Source of the DNA: an uncultured Candidatus Binatia bacterium | Lineage (GTDB): Bacteria; Desulfobacterota; Binatia; Bin18 | DNA: 64,000 nt | NCBI GenBank assembly: GCA_965200965.1 | Contig: OZ241744.1 | Span: forward strand, 2,880,001 to 2,944,000 | Direction of reading: 5' to 3' | Shown: positions 44,691 to 55,372 of the stretch, piece by piece | How the letters are laid out: each line of letters begins with the position of its first letter | Position numbering within the stretch: position 1 is the stretch's first letter | The notes under the pieces: generated by a model | Database searches by the model: none | Told to the model about the DNA's origin: nothing | The model's input: only the letters and a program-made list of their open reading frames with translations | Position numbers and translations under genes: made by a program

Positions 44691-45629
44691 CTAGACCTCC
44701 TGTTTCTGTGCAAACGCTGCCTTGAGTGCGCTGCCGGCCTCGTCAATCGCTTTGCGGCAGGCGTCAAAGGCAAAGAAACTGAAAAAGCCGTGGATCATGC
44801 CGTCATACCGGGAGGTAGTGACCTGGCAGCCGGCCTGCCTCAGCTTGTCGGCATAGGCCTCACCCTCGTCCCGCAGCGGATCAAACTCGGCCGTAATCAC
44901 CAGTGCGGGCGGCGGGCTGTTGACGTATTTGGCCTGGAGCGGAGACGCATACGGGTTCTTGCCGTCGGCTTCGCTGGCCAGATAATGGCCCCAGAACCAC
45001 TGCATGGCATCGACCGTCAGCAGATAATCCTTGGCGTTCTGCTTGCACGATTCGGTATCAAACGCGTGGTTGGTCACCGGGTAGATCAGGAGTTGGAAGG
45101 CCAGAGACGGTGCTCCGCGGTCGCCGGCCATGAGCGCCACGGCCGCGGCCAGATTCCCCCCGGCGCTATCCCCCCCAACGGCCACCCGGATGGGATCGCC
45201 CTGGTAGGTGGCGATATTGAGCATCGTCCACTTGGTGGCCTCATAGCAGTCGTCCGCGGCCGCGGGAAATTTATGTTCCGGGGCGAGGCGGTAGTCAACC
45301 GACACGGTGACGCAGTTGGCTGCGTTACTCAGCGCGCGGCAGGTCGGATCGTGCGTCTCCAGGTCGCCGATGACCCAGCCGCCGCCGTGAAAGAACACCA
45401 GGACCGGGAAGGGGCCGCGTCCCTCGGGTACATAGATCCGAATTGGCACGGGTCCGTTGACGGTGGGGATGGTCCGGTCTTCAACCCTGGAGACCGATTC
45501 GGGATGTTCCGCCGCAAACAGACCTTTGATGGCCTGCCGCGCTTCGGCAACCGGCAGTTCGTTCAGGCCCGGGGCACCCGCGGCTGCTAATTGATCGAGC
45601 AATGCTTTGGCTTGTGGGTCTAAGGGCAT
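44691..45629 (-). CDS. Alpha/beta hydrolase (HSL-family esterase)
   Basis: HGGG, YRLAPEH, GDSAGGNL, DPLRDE, HGF motifs. Confidence 0.95.
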   Translation of the reverse strand: MPLDPQAKALLDQLAAAGAPGLNELPVAEARQAIKGLFAAEHPESVSRVEDRTIPTVNGPVPIRIYVPEGRGPFPVLVFFHGGGWVIGDLETHDPTCRALSNAANCVTVSVDYRLAPEHKFPAAADDCYEATKWTMLNIATYQGDPIRVAVGGDSAGGNLAAAVALMAGDRGAPSLAFQLLIYPVTNHAFDTESCKQNAKDYLLTVDAMQWFWGHYLASEADGKNPYASPLQAKYVNSPPPALVITAEFDPLRDEGEAYADKLRQAGCQVTTSRYDGMIHGFFSFFAFDACRKAIDEAGSALKAAFAQKQEV

Positions 45630-45768
45630 GCTGTTCCTCCTTGTGCAAGCTTGTGCAAGATACCTCACCATTTTCTAGCCTGCCCATGCCCCCGGAGGCA
45701 AGTAGGGGCCAGGCAGTCGGTTGTGCACAGCCTTGCCCAAGCCGGGCTGAGGACATACAACAGACCGC

Positions 45769-47466
45769 ATGGAAGCCCTTGACCCCATCGCTTTGGAGAT
45801 TGTGTGGAACCGCCTGATCTCGATTGTCAACGAACAGGCGACAGCCCTCCAGAACGCCTCGTTTACTACCGTGGTCCGCGAGGCCGGCGACCTGTCGGCC
45901 GGGGTGTTTGACATCCAGGGCAATATGATCGCCCAGGCCGTCACCGGCACGCCGGGCCATATCAACACGATGGCGCTGGCCGTGCGCCACTTTTTGGCCG
46001 CCTACCCGTGGCCGCAGCTCGAAGACGGCGACAGCCTGATCAGCAACGATCCATGGCTGACCTCCGGCCACCTCAACGACTTTACGGTTGTCACCCCGAT
46101 CTTTCGCGCCGGCCAGCCGGTCGGCCTGTTTGCCAACACCTGTCACGCGGTTGATGTGGGCGGGCGGATGCTGGGCGCAGACGCCCGTCAGGTGTTTGAA
46201 GAGGGCATCTATGTCCCGATCATGAAGCTCTTCCGCGCCGGCCGGCCCAACGACGATCTGTTCCGGCTGGTCAAACAGAATGTCCGTGCGCCCGAGCTGG
46301 TTGAGGGCGACCTGATGGCCCAGGTCGGCAGCAACGAGGTGGGCGGGGCCAAACTGCTGGAGTTCATGGACGAGGCAGACCTGCCCGGGCTCGATCAGCT
46401 CTCGGACGCCATCCTGAGGACCTCGGAAAAGGCGATGCGGGAGGCGATTGCCGAGCTGCCGCGGGGGACATACCAGCACGAAATCCGGATGGACGGCTTT
46501 GACGAGCCGATCGTGGTCAACATTGCGGTGCGGGTCGAAGGCTCGGACCTGTATGTCGATTTTACCGGCACCTCGGCCCAGTGTGAGCGGGGGATCAATG
46601 TCCCGTTTGCCTATTGTGTGGCCTATACGACCTATCCCCTCACCTGCGCTGTCTCGCCCGGTGTGCCCAATAATGCGGGCAGCTTTCGACCGATTCATAT
46701 CAGCGCCCCGCGGGGCTGCATCCTGAACTGCGCGTTTCCGGCACCGGTTGGCGGGCGGCACATTATCGGCCACTTTCTGTCTACCGCGGTGTTTGGCGCG
46801 CTGTCACAGGCGGTGCCCGATCGCGTTCTGGCCGACGGCGCGGCCAATATCTGGATCACCCAGTTTACCGGCACGGGCGCGGACGGCGAAAACTTTACCT
46901 CTGTCTTCTTCTCTTCAGGTGGAATGGGCGCGCGGCCAGACAAGGACGGCATCTCGGCCACGGCCTTTCCCAGCGGCATCCAGGGCGTGCCGGCCGAGAT
47001 CATTGAAAATGTCTCGCCGCTGCTCATGGAGCAACGCGCCCTTATTCCCGACTCCGGCGGACCGGGCAGATATCGGGGGGGATTGGGCCAGGAGATGGTC
47101 TTATCGGTCAGAACGTCCGAGCCGGTCATCCACTCGGCCATGTATGACCGGACCAAATTTCCGGCGCTGGGCTATCAGGGCGGGAAGAACGGCGGGCTGG
47201 GCGATTTTCTCTTATCGGACGGCAGTCGCCCCCACCCCAAGGCCCAGTACCGATTGCGGCCCGACCAGAAAGTCATCTTGCGGCTGCCGGGCGGGGGTGG
47301 CTTTTACTCGCCTCTCGAACGCGCGCCCGAATTGGTCCGGCAAGACGTGGTGGACGGCTATGTATCCGTTGCCGCGGCCCGGGCCGAGTACGGCCTTGTT
47401 TTGGACGCCGAGGGCGAGATCGACTGGCCACAAACCCGAGGCTTGCGGACGGAGATGAACGCTTAG
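45769..47466 (+). CDS. Hydantoinase B/oxoprolinase family protein
   Basis: DPIALEIVWNRL, NDPW..SGHLND, DSGGPGRYRGGLG, PGGGG motifs. Confidence 0.93.
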   Translation: MEALDPIALEIVWNRLISIVNEQATALQNASFTTVVREAGDLSAGVFDIQGNMIAQAVTGTPGHINTMALAVRHFLAAYPWPQLEDGDSLISNDPWLTSGHLNDFTVVTPIFRAGQPVGLFANTCHAVDVGGRMLGADARQVFEEGIYVPIMKLFRAGRPNDDLFRLVKQNVRAPELVEGDLMAQVGSNEVGGAKLLEFMDEADLPGLDQLSDAILRTSEKAMREAIAELPRGTYQHEIRMDGFDEPIVVNIAVRVEGSDLYVDFTGTSAQCERGINVPFAYCVAYTTYPLTCAVSPGVPNNAGSFRPIHISAPRGCILNCAFPAPVGGRHIIGHFLSTAVFGALSQAVPDRVLADGAANIWITQFTGTGADGENFTSVFFSSGGMGARPDKDGISATAFPSGIQGVPAEIIENVSPLLMEQRALIPDSGGPGRYRGGLGQEMVLSVRTSEPVIHSAMYDRTKFPALGYQGGKNGGLGDFLLSDGSRPHPKAQYRLRPDQKVILRLPGGGGFYSPLERAPELVRQDVVDGYVSVAAARAEYGLVLDAEGEIDWPQTRGLRTEMNA

Positions 47467-47567
47467 CTGGGAGAGCGTTCGCGGACTTGCCCGCACTATC
47501 GTTTCGCTGTTCTGCGTGCTAGTGTTGAGTGTGGTTCCCGAAACGCGAACACCGAGAATTGGCTGAC

Positions 47568-48653
47568 ATGATGCAGGCACAACGGTCCGGCAAAGACAGG
47601 ACACGACAGAGCCAGTACTGGATGCGCGCCATCTCGTTTGCTGGACTCCATCGTATCGTGAAAGCCGTTGCTGCCTTTCCGAACGGCCTGAGGGCCGCTG
47701 AAATGAACCAGTTGGTGCAAGAGAATAAGCTCGTGCTTACCCGGCGTCGTTCTGCCCCGGCCCCGACGACCCTGTACCACTATCGACGTACTTTGCTTTG
47801 CCTGCGTGCACTCACACGAGATGGGCGGAGGCTGCGTATCAATGCAGCTGACCCTGATGTTCGCAAGTTGCTCTGTCACCCAGTCCCGGCTAGCGGAGAT
47901 CGCACGCTCACTGATTCCGCAAAAGACCATTTCGCCGCGTTGGTCTTAAAGAATGCACCATGCAGGACACTGTTTTTTGATCTGTTCATGCCCGTGGGTG
48001 TCACCGCAGATTCCGTTGTGCGTTTTCGTCACAACGGTTGTCCTGTCACATGGACCCGCCATACCTCCTGTCGTGCCAGGGAGGTGGTTTTTCACAATGA
48101 CACAACAGGCCGTACAGCACGGTGTACTTCACCCGTAAGCGTAGCTGCTCTCCTCTACGGGGTGCGCTACTGGGCGCGTGATGAGTTGGGACTCATAGAC
48201 GAATATTGTCCAAAGGGCGGTGATGGCGTGGTCATGTTTCCTATATTACGCCCCCGATCTTACGCTACGCGAAACGGCCGCTCTGTCCCGCAAATTGCGT
48301 ACCGCCTCCTCTCGATGCGGAACTCAGAGGAATGGACGGTCTTCTCCATTCTTGATCTCATTACTCGGTGCTGCGAAGCGCACCGGCAACCGATCAGCGC
48401 GCTTTTTGACGCGATCGATTGGCTGCTTCGAGAATGGCCGCATCACGTCGTCCTGATCCCGACCTCTCGTGCTCTTGCAACGCTCACGGCGACCTCTGCG
48501 CAAAGGGAGACGCTGGAGTTGCGACAGTACTACCAAGTCTCAAACGGCCCTTACATCTCCCACTTCCGCATACACAAAGACATCGTGTTGAAAACCACGG
48601 AGTTCACAGACCATCATGTCCAACATCCTTCAAAAATTCAGGCTGCATTCTAA
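47568..48653 (+). CDS. Hypothetical protein, putative tandem winged-helix DNA-binding subunit (gene 1 of cassette)
   Basis: Long ORF overlapping the ATPase start; TTLYHYRRTLLCL and YWARDELGLIDE look like wHTH segments (inference). Start could be 47529. Confidence 0.65.
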   Translation: MMQAQRSGKDRTRQSQYWMRAISFAGLHRIVKAVAAFPNGLRAAEMNQLVQENKLVLTRRRSAPAPTTLYHYRRTLLCLRALTRDGRRLRINAADPDVRKLLCHPVPASGDRTLTDSAKDHFAALVLKNAPCRTLFFDLFMPVGVTADSVVRFRHNGCPVTWTRHTSCRAREVVFHNDTTGRTARCTSPVSVAALLYGVRYWARDELGLIDEYCPKGGDGVVMFPILRPRSYATRNGRSVPQIAYRLLSMRNSEEWTVFSILDLITRCCEAHRQPISALFDAIDWLLREWPHHVVLIPTSRALATLTATSAQRETLELRQYYQVSNGPYISHFRIHKDIVLKTTEFTDHHVQHPSKIQAAF

Positions 48654-49803
48654 TCCTTTCGAGCCTGCCGCGACGGGTATGCCTCTTTCGGGGGCTCTAC
48701 CTCCGCCGGAGACATGGAAGACGGATGTGCAACATCTCCTTGATATTCATCAGACTGGAGAGGGGGTGAAGGCCATTGTCATTAATGGCGCCTATGGGAG
48801 TGGAAAGACTTGCCTGCTGCAATGGCTCCATAGGGACATCCTGCCAAAACGTCAGATCAGGTCGTTCTACTTCGACAATCCAGGGGTACAATTCTATGAC
48901 CTCGCTAACATGTTATTACGCACTATTGGGCGAAAAGATTTTGCTAAATTTATTTGGGAGTTGGCAGGCTCGTATGTGACTGTCCCATATCCGAGGTCTC
49001 TTTTCCAAGAGGGTTTCGAGGAGTATTTGTCCGACGCGTTTCGTCCACATCGGACTCAACCGGACATGACAAAGCCCCTCCAGGATGCTATCCTGAATGC
49101 GCAAGTCACGACCGACGAAGAGATCGCACACTGTCTCGCTCGGATCGTCACCGAGACTATAAAGCAACCGTATTTTGAATACCGGGACTTCGTCCCTCGC
49201 TCAAGAGGCAGTGTGGTCCCTGAAGGAGAGGAAGCCCCCTACTTTGGAGCGATATTGAAAACAATTTTACAAGGGACAAGTGCCAAGGCCATTGCGTTTC
49301 TGATAGACGAATTCGAGGAAATAGGCCTGCAGAAACGGCTCAGCAAGCGAGCGGCGCACGGTTACTTGGCCACGCTGAAACGTCTTATCAACCTTGCTGA
49401 AAACGCGCCGTTCAACTTCTGGATTGTGCTCTCAATGACACCCGATGCTTACCAGACTACCGAAAACCTTGAACCCTCTCTTGTGGCGCGTATTGCGGAC
49501 CGTAAATTCGATCTCAAACCCCTGACGCCCAAGGATGCGCTCGCTCTGATGAAATCCCGGATAGACGCTACTCGCTCAGGAGAGACAGATGAGTCAATGG
49601 GTGCCCTTTTCCCGTTTCCTGACAATATCCTCTTTCATCCCAGCACCTACTCGAATCCCAGGCGGCTTATAAAAGTGTGTTTCCGGGCGCTTGGGCAGGC
49701 AGACGCTGAGGTGCAACTCCCATTTACGGAGGACTATCTTCACGCAATCGAAAAAGAGCTTTATCCCAGCTTGGCTCCAACAGAAACGCAAAACCATGAA
49801 TGA
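48616..49803 (+). CDS. AAA+/P-loop ATPase (gene 2 of cassette)
   Basis: N-terminal NPF, Walker A GAYGSGKT, Walker B FLIDEFEE, putative Arg finger LVARI, sensor-II-like SNPRRLIKVC. Confidence 0.88.
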   Translation: MSNILQKFRLHSNPFEPAATGMPLSGALPPPETWKTDVQHLLDIHQTGEGVKAIVINGAYGSGKTCLLQWLHRDILPKRQIRSFYFDNPGVQFYDLANMLLRTIGRKDFAKFIWELAGSYVTVPYPRSLFQEGFEEYLSDAFRPHRTQPDMTKPLQDAILNAQVTTDEEIAHCLARIVTETIKQPYFEYRDFVPRSRGSVVPEGEEAPYFGAILKTILQGTSAKAIAFLIDEFEEIGLQKRLSKRAAHGYLATLKRLINLAENAPFNFWIVLSMTPDAYQTTENLEPSLVARIADRKFDLKPLTPKDALALMKSRIDATRSGETDESMGALFPFPDNILFHPSTYSNPRRLIKVCFRALGQADAEVQLPFTEDYLHAIEKELYPSLAPTETQNHE

Positions 49804-50578
49804 TCGACAGGATTTTTGGAAGGTCGTATTCCTGGACACAAATACCCTCCATTACATCGGAATCTACCTGGAATATGCGCAGGAGAAATCCCTATATCCT
49901 TATTCTCAGGACATCAAAGAGAAGGCGATAGCGAACATCAACGAACAAGCGAAAGCCGATGTCAAGCCAAGCCTTAAGCGGGGGCTGGAAACTGTCGACT
50001 ATTTCCGTTCGTCTGGTGTACAGGTCCAATACTCGCCCATCTCTGAGCTTGAGTTACTCACAGGGAAAGCGAGAGGAAGAGCCCTCTTGAGGGCAGCAAG
50101 AGAAGGGGTGCCGGACCGGATGTACTCGCGCTTTCTTGAAAAAGAAATCAGCGCCCGAGTGGGCGTCGACGACTTGAAGGAGGTCAAGGAGAAGGTGGAC
50201 GGGTTAACTTCACTGCTGGAAAAATTGGATGTTGTTGTCAAGATGAGCCGCGGTGACGAAACGCGCGATGTGCTGGAGTTGGCAAAGGGTATCAATGGGC
50301 TGATTTATATGCAAGCTATGGACAGTATTATTTATGCGAGTACGCTCGTTGCCAAAGCGGATTACCTGTTTACCAGTGATAAATATCTCAGAAATACTAT
50401 AAACAGAATACAGGGTCTACGCAGTTCGGGTGACACTACCCGCGATCGGGAAATCAGAAGACAATTACGCCAACTCGTCAGCAACATCATACCTGGACCT
50501 GGAACTGCCGATAAAGTGGAATTGCCAAGTGCCCATACGATTACAGCTGGCGGTACAGCTAAACCGGAGATACCGTAA
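49796..50578 (+). CDS. PIN-like domain nuclease (gene 3 of cassette)
   Basis: VFLDTNTL, SELE, MDSIIYAS, LFTSDK acidic PIN pattern; ATGAATGA overlap with the ATPase stop. Confidence 0.72.
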   Translation: MNDRQDFWKVVFLDTNTLHYIGIYLEYAQEKSLYPYSQDIKEKAIANINEQAKADVKPSLKRGLETVDYFRSSGVQVQYSPISELELLTGKARGRALLRAAREGVPDRMYSRFLEKEISARVGVDDLKEVKEKVDGLTSLLEKLDVVVKMSRGDETRDVLELAKGINGLIYMQAMDSIIYASTLVAKADYLFTSDKYLRNTINRIQGLRSSGDTTRDREIRRQLRQLVSNIIPGPGTADKVELPSAHTITAGGTAKPEIP

Positions 50579-50591
50579 ACCGGAGATACCG
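50560..50591. repeat. Perfect 16-bp tandem duplication TAAACCGGAGATACCG
   Basis: 50560-50575 equals 50576-50591; the second copy supplies the TAA stop of the PIN gene. Confidence 0.9.
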
Positions 50592-50615
50592 GGTTCACGA
50601 ACATGATCGCACGTC

Positions 50616-51830
50616 ATGAAGTGGCACGTTACCGAACGGGCTGAGTGGAAACATTGGATGACACCAAGAGCCGCGAGGGAGAAGGCGGTCCACCGCTGGT
50701 ATCTTTTTCCTCACAGCTTTACGGGCGAACTCGTCTACTCTTTAGTTGATGAATGGAGATTGACCGAACACGATACGATCCTTGACCCCTTTACGGGCGC
50801 GGGGACCACACTCTTGGCCGCGAAGGAAAAGAGCCTTTCGGGGACAGGTTACGATCTTTCCCCCCTCGCCGTTCTTGCCTCGAACACCAAGACAGCTACT
50901 TTTGTACCGGAGAACTTGGAGAAGCTAGGGCAGACGCTCCAACACGCCTCACAGTCGAGAAGCGCGTTGCCTATGAAGCGAACCTACCCAGAACTGGTAC
51001 GAAAAGCGCTGCCTGAGGGACGGCTTGAAGCGTTCGATACGATTGCTACGCGTATAGACACCCTTGACGGTTCTTCGTCGGAGCGAGACTTCTTTCGGCT
51101 GGCGTTGATTTCCATCATCCCGCATTTCAGTCATGCGGTTGCAAACGGGGGCTGGTTGAGGTGGTTGCGCCAGGGCGCTGGCACCGAAAACGTGTGGAAC
51201 TCTTTCAAGGATCGAGTCGAGATGATGTTATCGGACGTTCGTGACTCGGAACCCCAAGGCGCTGGCAATTGGGAGGCCCGGGTCGCGGATGCCCGCACCA
51301 TCCCAGCGCCCGACGCATCGTATTCAGCCGTGATTACTTCGCCGCCATACCCGAATCGTCACGACTATACGCGAATCTTCGGTATAGAATTGATGTTTGC
51401 GTTTCATGGCTGGGAGGCAAATCGAGCCCTGAGATACCAGAGTTTCCATTCCCATCCAGAAGCTCGCCCGAAACGACCTCCGGCGAAAGGGTACGAAGCA
51501 CCGAAATCGCTGGAAAGAAATATTTGCCATGTGAGAGACCAGCGTATGCAACAGATGCTACGGGGGTACTTTTTTGATATGTATCTCTGTCTGTGTGAAG
51601 TTGAACGTGTGTGTCGTGCAGGCGGAAAGGCTGCGTTCGTGGTTGGAAACGCCCGCTACGATGGCAGCGTCATTCCTGTTGACGAGTACAGCGCGGAAAT
51701 CGGCGAGCGGGCAGGGCTCATATGCAAGGAAATACGAGTGGTACGTTGGCGCGGAAACAGTGCCCAGCAGATGGGGAAATACGGGCGCGTGGCATCCCGA
51801 GAGAGCGTTGTGCTCTTTGAGAAACGATGA
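50616..51830 (+). CDS. DNA methyltransferase, alpha-type order, probably N4-cytosine (gene 4 of cassette)
   Basis: VHRWY.FPHSF, ILDPFTGAGTT (motif I) before ITSPPYPN (motif IV), VVGN, RESV. Confidence 0.88.
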   Translation: MKWHVTERAEWKHWMTPRAAREKAVHRWYLFPHSFTGELVYSLVDEWRLTEHDTILDPFTGAGTTLLAAKEKSLSGTGYDLSPLAVLASNTKTATFVPENLEKLGQTLQHASQSRSALPMKRTYPELVRKALPEGRLEAFDTIATRIDTLDGSSSERDFFRLALISIIPHFSHAVANGGWLRWLRQGAGTENVWNSFKDRVEMMLSDVRDSEPQGAGNWEARVADARTIPAPDASYSAVITSPPYPNRHDYTRIFGIELMFAFHGWEANRALRYQSFHSHPEARPKRPPAKGYEAPKSLERNICHVRDQRMQQMLRGYFFDMYLCLCEVERVCRAGGKAAFVVGNARYDGSVIPVDEYSAEIGERAGLICKEIRVVRWRGNSAQQMGKYGRVASRESVVLFEKR

Positions 51831-51880
51831 CAATCAAGTTATGGTTGGAACGGTAGATTAGTCTGTCTCTGAGAAATGCA

Positions 51881-51933
51881 GGCTATCTGTCCGCTGCCGC
51901 AGCTTGGCCCGAGTACGGCCTCGTGCGGATGCC
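51881..51933 (+). repeat. Degenerate copy of the hydantoinase B 3' segment 47356-47409
   Basis: 42/54 identical by manual alignment; GYLSAAAAWPEYGLV versus GYVSVAAARAEYGLV. Confidence 0.75.
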
Positions 51934-52286
51934 TGGAATGAGAGAGAAAAAGAAGGCTGGGGGGCCACAAGAGAACCCGGCCTGGAGAACCTACTGGAAA
52001 CAGGGAGCCATGCGCCTAGTCACCTGCCTTAAGCACCCTGGTAAGACAAACGAATAAGGTGGGCGAAATATCGGGAATCAGTTCTGACCCAACTTGGGCT
52101 ACACCGGCTGAGGCAAACAGGCAGACTCCAAGCACGACAAGGCTGGTGCAACACGGCATAAGCGCTATTCTCTCTCCGATGTCCCGACGGGTCAATCTCG
52201 TTTTTGATGCGCCAGGGGCTGGGCCGGACACGCGTCCTTGACCTTCTTCCCCCACCAGGCTACGCCAGAGGAAGAGGGGGGAGGGG

Positions 52287-53432
52287 GTGCAGGATATCCA
52301 GGACCTTGACCTGCTCATGCTGAGCATGGGGGAGAAATTCCGGGCGGAGATTGTCCAGCCGATCGGACCACGCCCAACACGCCTGCCGGTTAAGCAGTCC
52401 TTTTCGCTGGCCGTGACGCACGCCTTTTTGGGCTTTCCCCAGCTCATGCGCAGGCGCACGCCCAGCCCCGAGCGTGTCGCTCGGCGGGGCAGGCGGCTGG
52501 GGGATACGGTTTCGCCCCTGTCGATCTGGATGCTGGGGTACTTCTTTCTGGTCGGACGGGAGGTTGTGCTCGATTTGGCACCCGAAACAGCCGACGCCCT
52601 CCAGGACAATGTTGCTGAGGTCCTGGAGTTCTGGCAGTGCCTGAGTGCGGCGCATCGGGGCGATGGGCATCTCGACAATAGCGACGCCGGCCTGACCAAC
52701 CGTTTTTTGCCAAAGGCGCTCGTTGAGCAGTTGTATCAGGGTTTGGTCCCGGCGGATGGGGAAATGCGCCGGCTGGTGGCGCGGTGTGCGGCGACGCTGG
52801 AAGCCTATCTGTTCGACCTGAACGCCGAGGCGCATGTGGGCCTTGCCGATTCCGGCCCCTACCCGCTGAGTACCGACCGGGTGCTGATTGTGCGGGACTT
52901 TTTCGATCTCAAAGGCCGCTTCTATCCCTGGCGAGAGACCGTGGCCGCGCTGCCGTATGCCAGTTGTTCCCTGGCCTTTACCCTGGACCCAGCCGATTTT
53001 CAGCGCATTGCTGTGCGTGACCGGGCGGCTCTGCTGACCTCTCCCCCGGATTATACCCGGCGGCTGCGTGAGATCGCCTTTGTGACGCATGACAGCGGTC
53101 GGCCGCGCCTGCTGCCTTTTACCGAAATGGATCGGCTCGTCCGTGCCGTCAAAAAGCTCCAGCCGCGTCTGGCCGCCTGGTTTGCCCGTCTGTCGCCCTA
53201 CGGCACTATTATCCACGGGGCTATGCCCTGGGTCCTGCGGCCCCTCTCGGTGATTGGCACGGCCGAAGACTGCTTTGACTGGCAGCCCGACCCCGAAGCG
53301 CTGCGTTTGCTCTCCTTGTACGCCGACGACGAGGCGCGGGCGGTGCGCTGGGCCAGCCACCGCTGCCTGGCCCCGGGCCGCCCGGCGTTTGTGTCAATCG
53401 GCGCGCGTTCGGCCGCGGGCAGGCGCGGGTAA
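52287..53432 (+). CDS. Conserved hypothetical protein
   Basis: 381-aa ORF with host-like codon bias; family-like motif YLF.LNAE..VGLADSGPY.L..DRVLIVRD. Confidence 0.75.
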   Translation: MQDIQDLDLLMLSMGEKFRAEIVQPIGPRPTRLPVKQSFSLAVTHAFLGFPQLMRRRTPSPERVARRGRRLGDTVSPLSIWMLGYFFLVGREVVLDLAPETADALQDNVAEVLEFWQCLSAAHRGDGHLDNSDAGLTNRFLPKALVEQLYQGLVPADGEMRRLVARCAATLEAYLFDLNAEAHVGLADSGPYPLSTDRVLIVRDFFDLKGRFYPWRETVAALPYASCSLAFTLDPADFQRIAVRDRAALLTSPPDYTRRLREIAFVTHDSGRPRLLPFTEMDRLVRAVKKLQPRLAAWFARLSPYGTIIHGAMPWVLRPLSVIGTAEDCFDWQPDPEALRLLSLYADDEARAVRWASHRCLAPGRPAFVSIGARSAAGRRG

Positions 53433-54343
53433 AAGTACAGCCGGGCCGGTACGCTGTCCCGCTCCTCGCTGACCGTATAATAGCCCGTCCCGTCGGCCTT
53501 CCAGCCCAGCGCTTCGCCCTGGGGCTCGGGCAGATAGGGCAGGGTGACAGGCCGGGCGGTGAGGGCTTGGTGGATGGTCTGACCGGGGCTCCGCGTCCAG
53601 TAGTACACCGCGCGGTAACTCTTGAGCAGAATCTCTGCGCCCGATGGGGAAATATCCCCGCCAACCAGCCAGGCGTCCTGAGCGGCGTGCTCATTCAGGG
53701 CCAAAGTGGCGACCCGCTCAAGCGTGATGGGAGCGGTGGTCAATTGGGGGGAGGCGGCGCGGTAGACACGCACCTGAGGCTCGCGTTTGGAGATGACGTA
53801 CAGGTCTTTTGTAATCGGATCGACCAGCAAGGTTTCTGCGTCGCGTTTGCCGTCCGGGTAGCGAAAGGAAATTGTCTCAATGTTGGACAGGGTTTGGCCA
53901 GCGGCCTGCCCAGCCCTGACCCGTGGTTCTGGCACACGGTGGATATATTTCAGATCACGTCGCGCCCGGTTATCGCCAATATCGCCGATATACAGGTAGG
54001 ACCGGCCGGCCTCGGGGCCTGGTCCGAGCGCAATATCTTCCCAGTCGTGGTTCTTGACACCGTTCAGCACATAGGTGCCGAGATGGACGCCCCGGGAGTT
54101 GAGCGCAAACACCCGGTTTGGCTGTCCAGAGTCATTATGGACCCAGAGCACCCCCGGATTTTTTTGACTGGCGACAATGCCCGAGGCTTCGCTGATGGGC
54201 GCGTGTTCAACCAGCCCCCTATCCACCCGCTCCCCGAAGCGAGGCGTGCCGCCGGCCGCCTGAGCAGCCCAGCCGGCCAGGACCAGACACGCCACACCGA
54301 CCAACAGCGGTGATGACCGCGCTCTCTGCCAGCAAGCTCGCAT
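53198..54343 (-). CDS. Secreted beta-propeller protein (SdiA-regulated/phytase-like)
   Basis: Signal peptide, EASGIVAS.KNPGVLWVHNDSG, DWEDIA, GDIGDN, DAETL, QGEAL, YTVSE. The last ~70 codons overlap the convergent gene. Confidence 0.8.
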   Translation of the reverse strand: MRACWQRARSSPLLVGVACLVLAGWAAQAAGGTPRFGERVDRGLVEHAPISEASGIVASQKNPGVLWVHNDSGQPNRVFALNSRGVHLGTYVLNGVKNHDWEDIALGPGPEAGRSYLYIGDIGDNRARRDLKYIHRVPEPRVRAGQAAGQTLSNIETISFRYPDGKRDAETLLVDPITKDLYVISKREPQVRVYRAASPQLTTAPITLERVATLALNEHAAQDAWLVGGDISPSGAEILLKSYRAVYYWTRSPGQTIHQALTARPVTLPYLPEPQGEALGWKADGTGYYTVSEERDSVPARLYFYPRLPAAERAPIDTNAGRPGARQRWLAQRTARASSSAYKESKRSASGSGCQSKQSSAVPITERGRRTQGIAPWIIVP

Positions 54344-54454
54344 CCTTGTCTTTATACCGCCGGGAGCGAAACACGGCTATGATGCACGGCCTTAGCCCCG
54401 AATGCCGTGTCTGATAGGATGACGCTATGCCCGGCTCGGAGTGCTGTAGCGTGA

Positions 54455-55372
54455 ATGCGAGAGGCCATGCTGCCCGCAGTCTTTACCCCCCAATTTCTGG
54501 CTCGCCTGGAAACCCTCCGGCTTCGGTCGCGGCGACAATTTGTCGGCAGTCGCCCGGGCCGACATATTTCGCCCCGCCGTGGGGCCGGGCTTGAGTTTGC
54601 CGACTATCGCCCCTACACCCCGGGCGATGATCTGCGCGCCATTGACTGGAAACTGTACTGCCGCACCGACCGTCATTACATCAAGCTCTTTCAGGCAGAA
54701 GAAGACCTGTACACCTCTCTGTTCCTCGACCTGAGCGCCTCAATGGCGTATCCGGTCGGCGATGAGAAGTATGCTGCGGCCCGCAACCTGACACTGGCCC
54801 TAGCCTATATCGTGCTGGCCGGGGATGATGCGGTCAAACTGCACGCCTTGACCAGCGATGAGACCGAGCCGGCCACGCCGTTTCTTCGCGGGCGGCGACG
54901 TTTTGTCCAACTGCACGATTTTTGTACCAGGCTCCAGCCCCGGGGCCAGCCGCATCCTCCGACCGCCCTGGCCGGCCACCTGCACGCCCTGCACCGTCCG
55001 GGGAAAGCGATCTGGGTGTCGGATTTCCTCTTTTCCATCGAGATGTTCCAGGCTTCGCTCAAGCTGCTGCGGGCGGCCAACTTTGACCTGTCGGTCATCC
55101 AGGTGTTGGGCAGGACCGAGACCGACCCGCCGCTCGTGCCGGCCGGGGCCCGCTTTGTGGACAGCGAGAGCGGTGGCTCGGCCCTGATCCGCTTTGACGC
55201 CCGGGCCAAAAAAGCCTATGTTGAGCGCCTGGAGCGTCACAGCCGAGCGTTGCGCAGTGCGTGTCATCAGGCCGGGGTGCGGTATGCGCAATTGGTGACT
55301 GGCGCGCAGGCACTTGGTGATGTTCACGATTTTGTCCTGCGCGAATTGCCGGCTCTGGGCGTGCTGCGCTAA
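54455..55372 (+). CDS. DUF58 domain protein (MoxR-associated)
   Basis: GLEFADYRPYTPGDDLRAIDWK, LDLSASM, SDF motifs. Confidence 0.92.
   Translation: MREAMLPAVFTPQFLARLETLRLRSRRQFVGSRPGRHISPRRGAGLEFADYRPYTPGDDLRAIDWKLYCRTDRHYIKLFQAEEDLYTSLFLDLSASMAYPVGDEKYAAARNLTLALAYIVLAGDDAVKLHALTSDETEPATPFLRGRRRFVQLHDFCTRLQPRGQPHPPTALAGHLHALHRPGKAIWVSDFLFSIEMFQASLKLLRAANFDLSVIQVLGRTETDPPLVPAGARFVDSESGGSALIRFDARAKKAYVERLERHSRALRSACHQAGVRYAQLVTGAQALGDVHDFVLRELPALGVLR

What the first reader, a model, noticed from the sequence alone, without database searches (positions are those of the whole stretch)
47529..51830. Candidate new methylation-linked defence system: wHTH protein + AAA+ ATPase + PIN nuclease + m4C-type MTase, no restriction endonuclease
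Seen: four co-oriented genes, more AT-rich than the flanks, with overlapping junctions (38 bp gene1/2, 8 bp gene2/3) and a 37-bp gap before gene 4. Motifs are intact: Walker A/B, PIN acidic residues, DPFxGxGT and SPPY. The block is bracketed by a duplicated host-gene end. Known: SPPY alpha-type MTases usually partner a type II REase; BREX uses P-loop ATPases but needs PglZ, which is absent here. I cannot match this gene set to BREX, DISARM or type I-IV R-M. Inference: the MTase marks self, gene 1 recognises unmethylated sites, and the ATPase assembles there to cut DNA or trigger the PIN RNase for abortive infection.
Basis: partly seen in the sequence, partly recalled or inferred. Interest (0 to 1): 0.85.

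Follow-up and report, generated by a model that had tools for sequence, protein, structure and literature searches.

The report
Methylase–reader–ATPase–PIN mobile defence cassette
Four tightly packed genes (a DNA methylase, a predicted FokI-like DNA reader, a BREX-type ATPase and a PIN nuclease) travel together among unrelated uncultured bacteria and likely form a compact anti-phage system in which unmethylated DNA would switch on the nuclease, with no ordinary restriction enzyme.

Summary
All four genes, junctions and motifs are as described, the block is 53% GC in 64% flanks, and five same-genus genomes show the empty site. All four genes are intact together in 62 of 108 loci (57 non-redundant, nine named host groups). 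Gene 1 models as three winged-helix domains like the FokI recognition domain, BrxA and SspB; I found no conserved PD-(D/E)xK motif. Gene 2 is BrxD-like, and is fused to gene 1 in three relatives. Gene 3 is VapC-like with four invariant acids. Gene 4 is an alpha-class SPPY methylase. It fails membership in BREX, Ssp and type II R-M, and my eight answered paper searches found no description. Function is untested. One intact locus lacks the methylase. A six-gene variant adds NurA–HerA. This scan found the same cassette before on other DNA (e1-5218453).

The parts
47529..48653 (+). Gene 1: predicted triple winged-helix DNA reader (FokI recognition domain / BrxA / SspB architecture); probable start ATG 47568
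   Evidence: 334 homologues. Model pLDDT 84. FokI Z 9.7, rmsd 3.4, 169 aligned; BrxA Z 7.8, rmsd 4.3, 160 aligned. SspB Z 6.7, 222 aligned over residues 26-354, rmsd 13.2. FokI D1-D3-only cluster at 0.89, a lead only.
48616..49803 (+). Gene 2: BrxD-like (ORC/Cdc6-clade) AAA+ ATPase with Walker A 58-65, Walker B 231-232, invariant R292 and P348-R349
   Evidence: Pfam AAA_22. PADLOC BrxD in 19 of 20 family members, best E 2e-7. Atlas BrxC/D clusters at 0.98. Invariant columns. Fused to gene 1 in L041, L049 and P0361.
49796..50578 (+). Gene 3: VapC-like PIN nuclease with helical inserts, catalytic D14/E86/D176/D195
   Evidence: Model pLDDT 91. VapC-type PIN matches at Z 10-11. The four acids are invariant in 115 homologues and in 57 loci.
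50616..51830 (+). Gene 4: alpha-class amino-methyltransferase (FxGxG near residue 57, SPPY 242-245), likely m4C
   Evidence: PADLOC MTase_II E 3e-57. Pfam N6_N4_Mtase. A 24.7% identical plasmid relative sits beside an AvaI/BsoBI-family endonuclease.
47356..47399 (+). Part of the 3' end of the host hydantoinase B gene (45769-47466); left copy of the repeat
51881..51924 (+). Decayed second copy of the hydantoinase B 3' segment (82%)
   Evidence: 88-nt version in G007

Best explanation
The four genes are one mobile unit that likely acts as a methylation-gated anti-phage system: gene 4 would mark host DNA (probably m4C), the predicted FokI/BrxA-like gene 1 product would bind unmarked sites, and the BrxD-like ATPase would then assemble and switch on the PIN nuclease, most likely as an RNase that halts the infected cell. 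Shown: co-inheritance, conserved order, purifying selection, intact catalytic motifs, reader-ATPase fusions, cross-phylum spread and defence neighbours. Predicted from models: the folds of genes 1 and 3. Inferred: that the methylase and reader share one site, that the ATPase activates the PIN, that the target is RNA, and that the unit protects against phage.
For: All four genes are intact in 62 of 108 loci. Of 68 loci with an intact reader, ATPase and PIN, 62 have an intact methylase, 2 have it cut by a contig end, 3 are short or end-truncated contigs and 1 truly lacks it. The methylase can lie before or after the other three, which keep their order. Pairwise distances co-vary, Spearman 0.87-0.96 over 57 loci. 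dN/dS is 0.15-0.69, with the PIN highest in each of three comparisons. Gene 1 matches the recognition domains of FokI and Nt.BspD6I, plus BrxA and SspB. Three reader-ATPase fusions exist. PIN matches are VapC toxins and no VapB-like small gene recurs at the loci. 29 of 61 genome loci carry a recurring defence gene in the fetched flanks (up to 10 kb), and 8 intact cassettes lie between hsdS and hsdR. Five of nine host groups with two or more loci... see tree: five of eight such groups are not monophyletic. The cassette is present in 3 of 8 same-genus genomes at one site.
Against: No phenotype or biochemistry exists. L049 keeps an intact reader-ATPase fusion and PIN, yet its 7.1-Mb draft genome has no orthologous methylase (best 24-28% identity). 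The methylase tree conflicts with the others at 6-7 strongly supported splits, so it is the loosest member. A NurA-HerA DNA-resection pair joins the unit in 8-10 metagenome loci, which points to DNA as a target. The defence-neighbour count has no background control. The FokI match (Z 9.7) is only about 1.3 above generic wHTH rows and covers two of the three domains. No avoided motif tracks the cassette.
Confidence: 0.45

Rival explanations
1. Same marking and reading, but the output is DNA cutting: the ATPase brings the PIN (or a cryptic site in gene 1) to unmarked DNA, making this an ATP-dependent R-M system with an unorthodox nuclease, organised like LlaJI.
For: The layout (methylase, reader, AAA+ motor, separate nuclease) parallels LlaJI (abstract of PMC1459862). 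NurA-HerA is added in three different positions in metagenome loci. Gene 1 keeps H84, D224, E225, H345 and H349 nearly invariant. SspB is reported to nick DNA (recalled, not checked).
Against: The PIN's top fold matches are VapC-type proteins, which are known as RNases (activity from established knowledge). NurA-HerA is absent from all 61 genome loci and may belong to the large PglX/type IIG-like methylase beside it in L089, L098 and L114.
Confidence: 0.25
2. A guard or backup module like PrrC or PARIS: reader, ATPase and PIN sense inhibition of a neighbouring R-M system (for example by a DNA mimic) and abort infection, with the methylase as bait or passenger.
For: 8 intact cassettes lie between hsdS and hsdR. 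prrC is embedded in a type I locus (passage of PMC12707154). L049 lacks the methylase. PIN RNases occur as backup effectors in BREX loci (PMC12839542 section 35).
Against: The cassette stands alone in this window and at the same site in G005 and G007. It brings its own methylase in 62 of 68 loci with an intact trio.
Confidence: 0.12
3. A selfish addiction cassette kept by post-segregational killing: loss of the mark triggers the PIN, and anti-phage benefit is negligible.
For: No locus has a broken methylase beside an intact trio, while the reverse occurs (L020, L025, L037). Several deletions remove ATPase, PIN and methylase start in one step (L015, L033, L061). Patchy presence.
Against: The numbers of broken loci are too small to test. 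No carrier element was found: no match in plasmids or viral contigs. The same pattern is expected of a defence system.
Confidence: 0.1

Closest known systems
BREX (BrxA reader; type 2 BrxD ATPase) and BREX-related systems (PMC12839542: abstract, sections 12, 20, 24, 36, part 1 of 35, term passages)
   Same: Multi-wHTH reader related to FokI/SspB, a stand-alone ORC/Cdc6-clade ATPase, and a DNA methylase for self-marking.
   Different: No PglZ, BrxC/DUF499, BrxB, BrxL or helicase in the unit. The methylase is a 404-aa SPPY enzyme, not PglX. The PIN is a fixed core gene, not an occasional backup.
SspABCD-E phosphorothioate system (passages of PMC10853773)
   Same: Triple-wHTH subunit (SspB aligned over the whole length of gene 1) paired with an ORC/Cdc6-clade ATPase.
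   Different: No sulfur-transfer genes. The mark is a methyl group. The ATPase is 395 aa against about 1,050 for the SspC model.
LlaJI / McrBC-like type II R-M (abstract of PMC1459862)
   Same: Four co-oriented genes; methylation protects, one subunit reads DNA with an NTPase, and another carries the nuclease.
   Different: One amino-methylase instead of two 5mC enzymes, a BrxD-like ATPase instead of a McrB GTPase, and a PIN instead of a PD-(D/E)xK McrC.
ORC/Cdc6 + triple-wHTH + REase-ASCH neighbourhoods (passage of PMC10853773)
   Same: Same reader and ATPase pair with a nuclease.
   Different: The effector there is a REase fused to ASCH, and no methylase or PIN is mentioned in the passage read.
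FokI (type IIS)
   Same: Gene 1 resembles its recognition domain.
   Different: No fused cleavage domain. An ATPase and a PIN follow instead.

Membership tests
BREX | PglZ | tested here: not met
   No PF08665 match in G000 (99% complete), G007 or G047; matches in G005 and G046 lie away from the cassette.
BREX | Large BrxC/PglY ATPase in the locus | tested here: not met
   Gene 2 is 395 aa. BrxC model hit in 1 of 20 members, BrxD in 19 of 20, all weak; NCBIfam BrxD 16 bits against a cut-off of 350.
BREX | BrxA-like multi-wHTH protein | tested here: met
   BrxA 7zge Z 7.8, rmsd 4.3, 160 aligned; by predicted fold only, no sequence match.
BREX | PglX methylase | tested here: not met
   Gene 4 matches MTase_II models, not PglX.
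Ssp phosphorothioate system | Cysteine desulfurase and PAPS reductase genes in the unit | tested here: not met
   Neither is in the window block or among the recurring neighbours scanned.
Ssp phosphorothioate system | SspB-like triple wHTH | tested here: inconclusive
   6juf Z 6.7, 222 aligned, rmsd 13.2.
Type II R-M | Stand-alone methylase with intact motifs | tested here: met
Type II R-M | PD-(D/E)xK, HNH, GIY-YIG or PLD endonuclease | tested here: inconclusive
   Gene 1: only wHTH matches and no conserved lysine. Gene 3 is a PIN. The insert of gene 2 between Walker A and B was not folded.
McrBC-like R-M (LlaJI) | McrB GTPase and McrC nuclease | tested here: not met
   No AAA_5 or McrBC match for genes 2 and 3; profile comparison with a McrB-like protein aligned only the P-loop.
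VapBC toxin-antitoxin | VapC-type PIN fold with acidic tetrad | tested here: met
VapBC toxin-antitoxin | Small upstream VapB antitoxin | tested here: not met
   The ATPase overlaps the PIN start by 8 bp here and abuts it in relatives.
Anti-phage defence system (any) | Protection against phage | not testable with these tools
   Needs cloning and a phage panel.

The most novel reading that the evidence does not exclude
A restriction-modification system without a restriction enzyme: a free FokI-type reader checks DNA methylation and, through a small BrxD ATPase, fires a VapC-type RNase. It would be the minimal form of the BREX/Ssp architecture, and an optional NurA-HerA pair would add DNA destruction.
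Probability: 0.4. Interest if true: 0.82.

Novelty: new variant of a known kind. Interest (0 to 1): 0.62.

Why it matters
What BrxA-type readers and BrxD-type ATPases do in BREX is still open; PMC12839542 (section 24) calls BrxD's role uncharacterized. A 4.3-kb unit with one reader, one such ATPase, one methylase and one nuclease, including natural reader-ATPase fusions, would make that step directly testable. It would also show either methylation-gated RNase killing or a PIN used as a restriction nuclease. All named carriers found were metagenome-assembled genomes, which may explain why catalogues miss it.

Tried and rejected
Sequence searches of gene 1 against Pfam, PADLOC, NCBIfam and PDB gave nothing meaningful. 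Foldseek gave no hit at E<=0.001. No match in plasmids for genes 1 and 2, in phages for gene 4 or in viral contigs for the ATPase. Phylum samples found no carrier beyond the centre genome: 0 of 400 in each of three phyla (only 4-5 candidates scored per genome). Target-site inference failed: YACGTR and GGCGCC are strongly avoided in G000 and G007 but not in cassette-bearing G005 or in other carriers' flanks. The plasmid locus L144 is a McrBC-type unit unrelated in genes 1 and 2. No RNA holder was listed, so expression is unchecked. The promoter scan was uninformative. Eight answered paper searches found no description of this gene set. The supplement of PMC12839542 could not be read and might list such neighbourhoods; supplements of PMC10853773 were not opened; DefenseFinder and REBASE were not available. 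The 'duplicated host-gene end' was rejected as a defining integration signature.

Full report
Observation. The four ORFs, their overlaps (38 and 8 bp), the 37-bp gap and all motifs are in the sequence. The block is 53.1% GC against 63.7% and 64.2% in the flanks. One contig of an independent run spans 45123-54500, and runs labelled sponge metagenome hold the stretch. The host's same-genus relatives G005 and G007 are the records titled Candidatus Binatia (L002, L001). The cassette follows the hydantoinase B gene in G000, G005 and G007; in G001-G004 and G006 that gene runs straight into downstream sequence and gene 1 is not found. The repeat of the host gene end is 44 nt at 82% here, 88 nt at 87.5% in G007 and not found in G005.

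Gene 1. It has 334 homologues and no family match; a profile search found 207 representatives at 50% clustering. The model (pLDDT 84) has three helix-turn-helix domains with wings. Its best structural match is the FokI recognition domain (Z 9.7, rmsd 3.4, 169 residues), with BrxA (Z 7.8, 160 residues) and Nt.BspD6I (Z 7.5, 166 residues) also spanning two domains. SspB aligns over residues 26-354 (Z 6.7, rmsd 13.2). A language-model search lists a cluster of 338-aa proteins made only of FokI D1-D3 at 0.89, a lead only. These Z values are moderate, but the two-domain matches agree with the family link drawn in PMC12839542 (section 20) and PMC10853773 (passages). No lysine is conserved and only D224 and E225 among acids, so a PD-(D/E)xK site is unlikely.

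Genes 2-4. The ATPase has invariant Walker A and B, R292 and P348-R349. Its family hits BrxD in 19 of 20 members and DpdH in 9, all weakly, and its nearest atlas clusters are BrxC/D (0.98). It is fused to gene 1 in L041, L049 and P0361. Gene 3 models at pLDDT 91 and matches VapC-type PIN proteins at Z 10-11; its only fully invariant acids are D14, E86, D176 and D195. Gene 4 has motif I before SPPY. A 24.7% relative sits beside an AvaI/BsoBI-family endonuclease; that M.AvaI makes m4C is recalled, not checked.

One inherited unit. Gene 1 retrieved 61 genome loci and the ATPase 49 metagenome loci. I scored the window, the 61 and 46 of the 49 (L131-L133 were left out as distant and read separately). 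All four genes are intact in 62 of 108, 57 after removing near-duplicates; this includes L055 (inverted) and L042 (insertion between genes 1 and 2). The rest are cut by contig ends or decayed. Reader-ATPase-PIN order is otherwise fixed, while the methylase lies after, before or divergent. Distant L132/L133 have methylase, reader, ATPase and, read in L133, a Pfam PIN. Distances co-vary (Spearman 0.87-0.96), with 2-7 strongly conflicting splits per pair, most involving the methylase. dN/dS is 0.15-0.69. In a tree of 39 genome loci, five of eight host groups with two or more members are not monophyletic (labels from record titles). Samples of 400 genomes in each of three phyla gave no further carrier.

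Context. 29 of 61 genome loci carry a recurring defence gene (type I R-M, Hma/DUF499, Septu, IetA, RmrA, SNF2 helicase), and 8 intact cassettes lie between hsdS and hsdR; there is no background control. NurA-like genes occur in 10 and HerA-like genes in 8 of the 49 metagenome loci (three near-identical), in three positions, and in none of the 61 genome loci. Large PglX/type IIG-like methylases adjoin several of these. No plasmid or viral carrier was found.

Mechanism. A methylase, a FokI-like reader, an oligomerising ATPase and a single nuclease give the logic of R-M with the cutter replaced. DNA cutting in the manner of LlaJI (abstract) is second (0.25) and is favoured by the NurA-HerA variant. 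A PrrC-like guard (0.12; passage) and pure addiction (0.10) follow. Against the gating model: L049 has an intact trio and no orthologous methylase in its draft genome. No broken methylase sits beside an intact trio, but the numbers are too small to weigh. The target site could not be inferred, and binding between subunits is untested.

Novelty. It is not BREX (no PglZ in G000; no BrxC or PglX), not Ssp, not McrBC-like and not VapBC. Eight answered paper searches and the parts of PMC12839542 and PMC10853773 that I read do not describe it; the first paper's supplement was unreadable. I rate it an unnamed variant of the wHTH plus ORC/Cdc6-ATPase modification-defence kind, interest 0.62.

Noticed in passing
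window 50560-50591: A perfect 16-bp tandem duplication; the second copy supplies the PIN stop codon. In relatives the PIN gene runs up to or overlaps the methylase start.
   Followed up: partly
L094:3454-6284, L114:6624-9446, L089, L098, L113, L118: Six-gene variant with a NurA-like nuclease and HerA-like ATPase at three different positions.
   Followed up: partly
L131:46-3295: A winged-helix-like ORF and a BrxD-like ATPase followed by a DpdA/TGT-like gene: possibly the same reader-ATPase module with a deazaguanine mark instead of a methyl group.
   Followed up: partly
L049:10028-12991 (G041): Fused reader-ATPase plus intact PIN with no methylase nearby or orthologue in the draft genome.
   Followed up: partly
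G000 whole genome; G007 samples L164-L167: Extreme avoidance of YACGTR (O/E 0.02) and GGCGCC (0.03), with GTGCAC and CTGCAG also low; shared with G007 but not G005, G002, G004. Suggests other long-resident R-M systems.
   Followed up: partly
L144:4956-11190 (plasmid NZ_MN657145.1): Two amino-methylases, an unknown 389-aa protein, a McrB-like ATPase and a McrC-like protein: a LlaJI-like unit with a possible free reader.
   Followed up: partly
L015, L033, L061, L031, L028: Decayed copies in which deletions bring gene 1 or the ATPase start close to the methylase end.
   Followed up: no
L016 and L017; L012: Near-identical cassettes in records titled Rhodothermaceae and Gammaproteobacteria, and an Acidobacteriota copy inside a Latescibacterota clade: recent cross-phylum transfer, or misbinning for the short L016 contig.
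   Followed up: partly
window 51925-52020: A stretch of about 250 bp that follows the hydantoinase gene in empty-site genomes appears replaced or lost here.
   Followed up: no
ESM Atlas cluster: A 92-member cluster of 338-aa proteins made only of FokI D1-D3 domains, with no cleavage domain; their neighbourhoods may hide similar systems.
   Followed up: no
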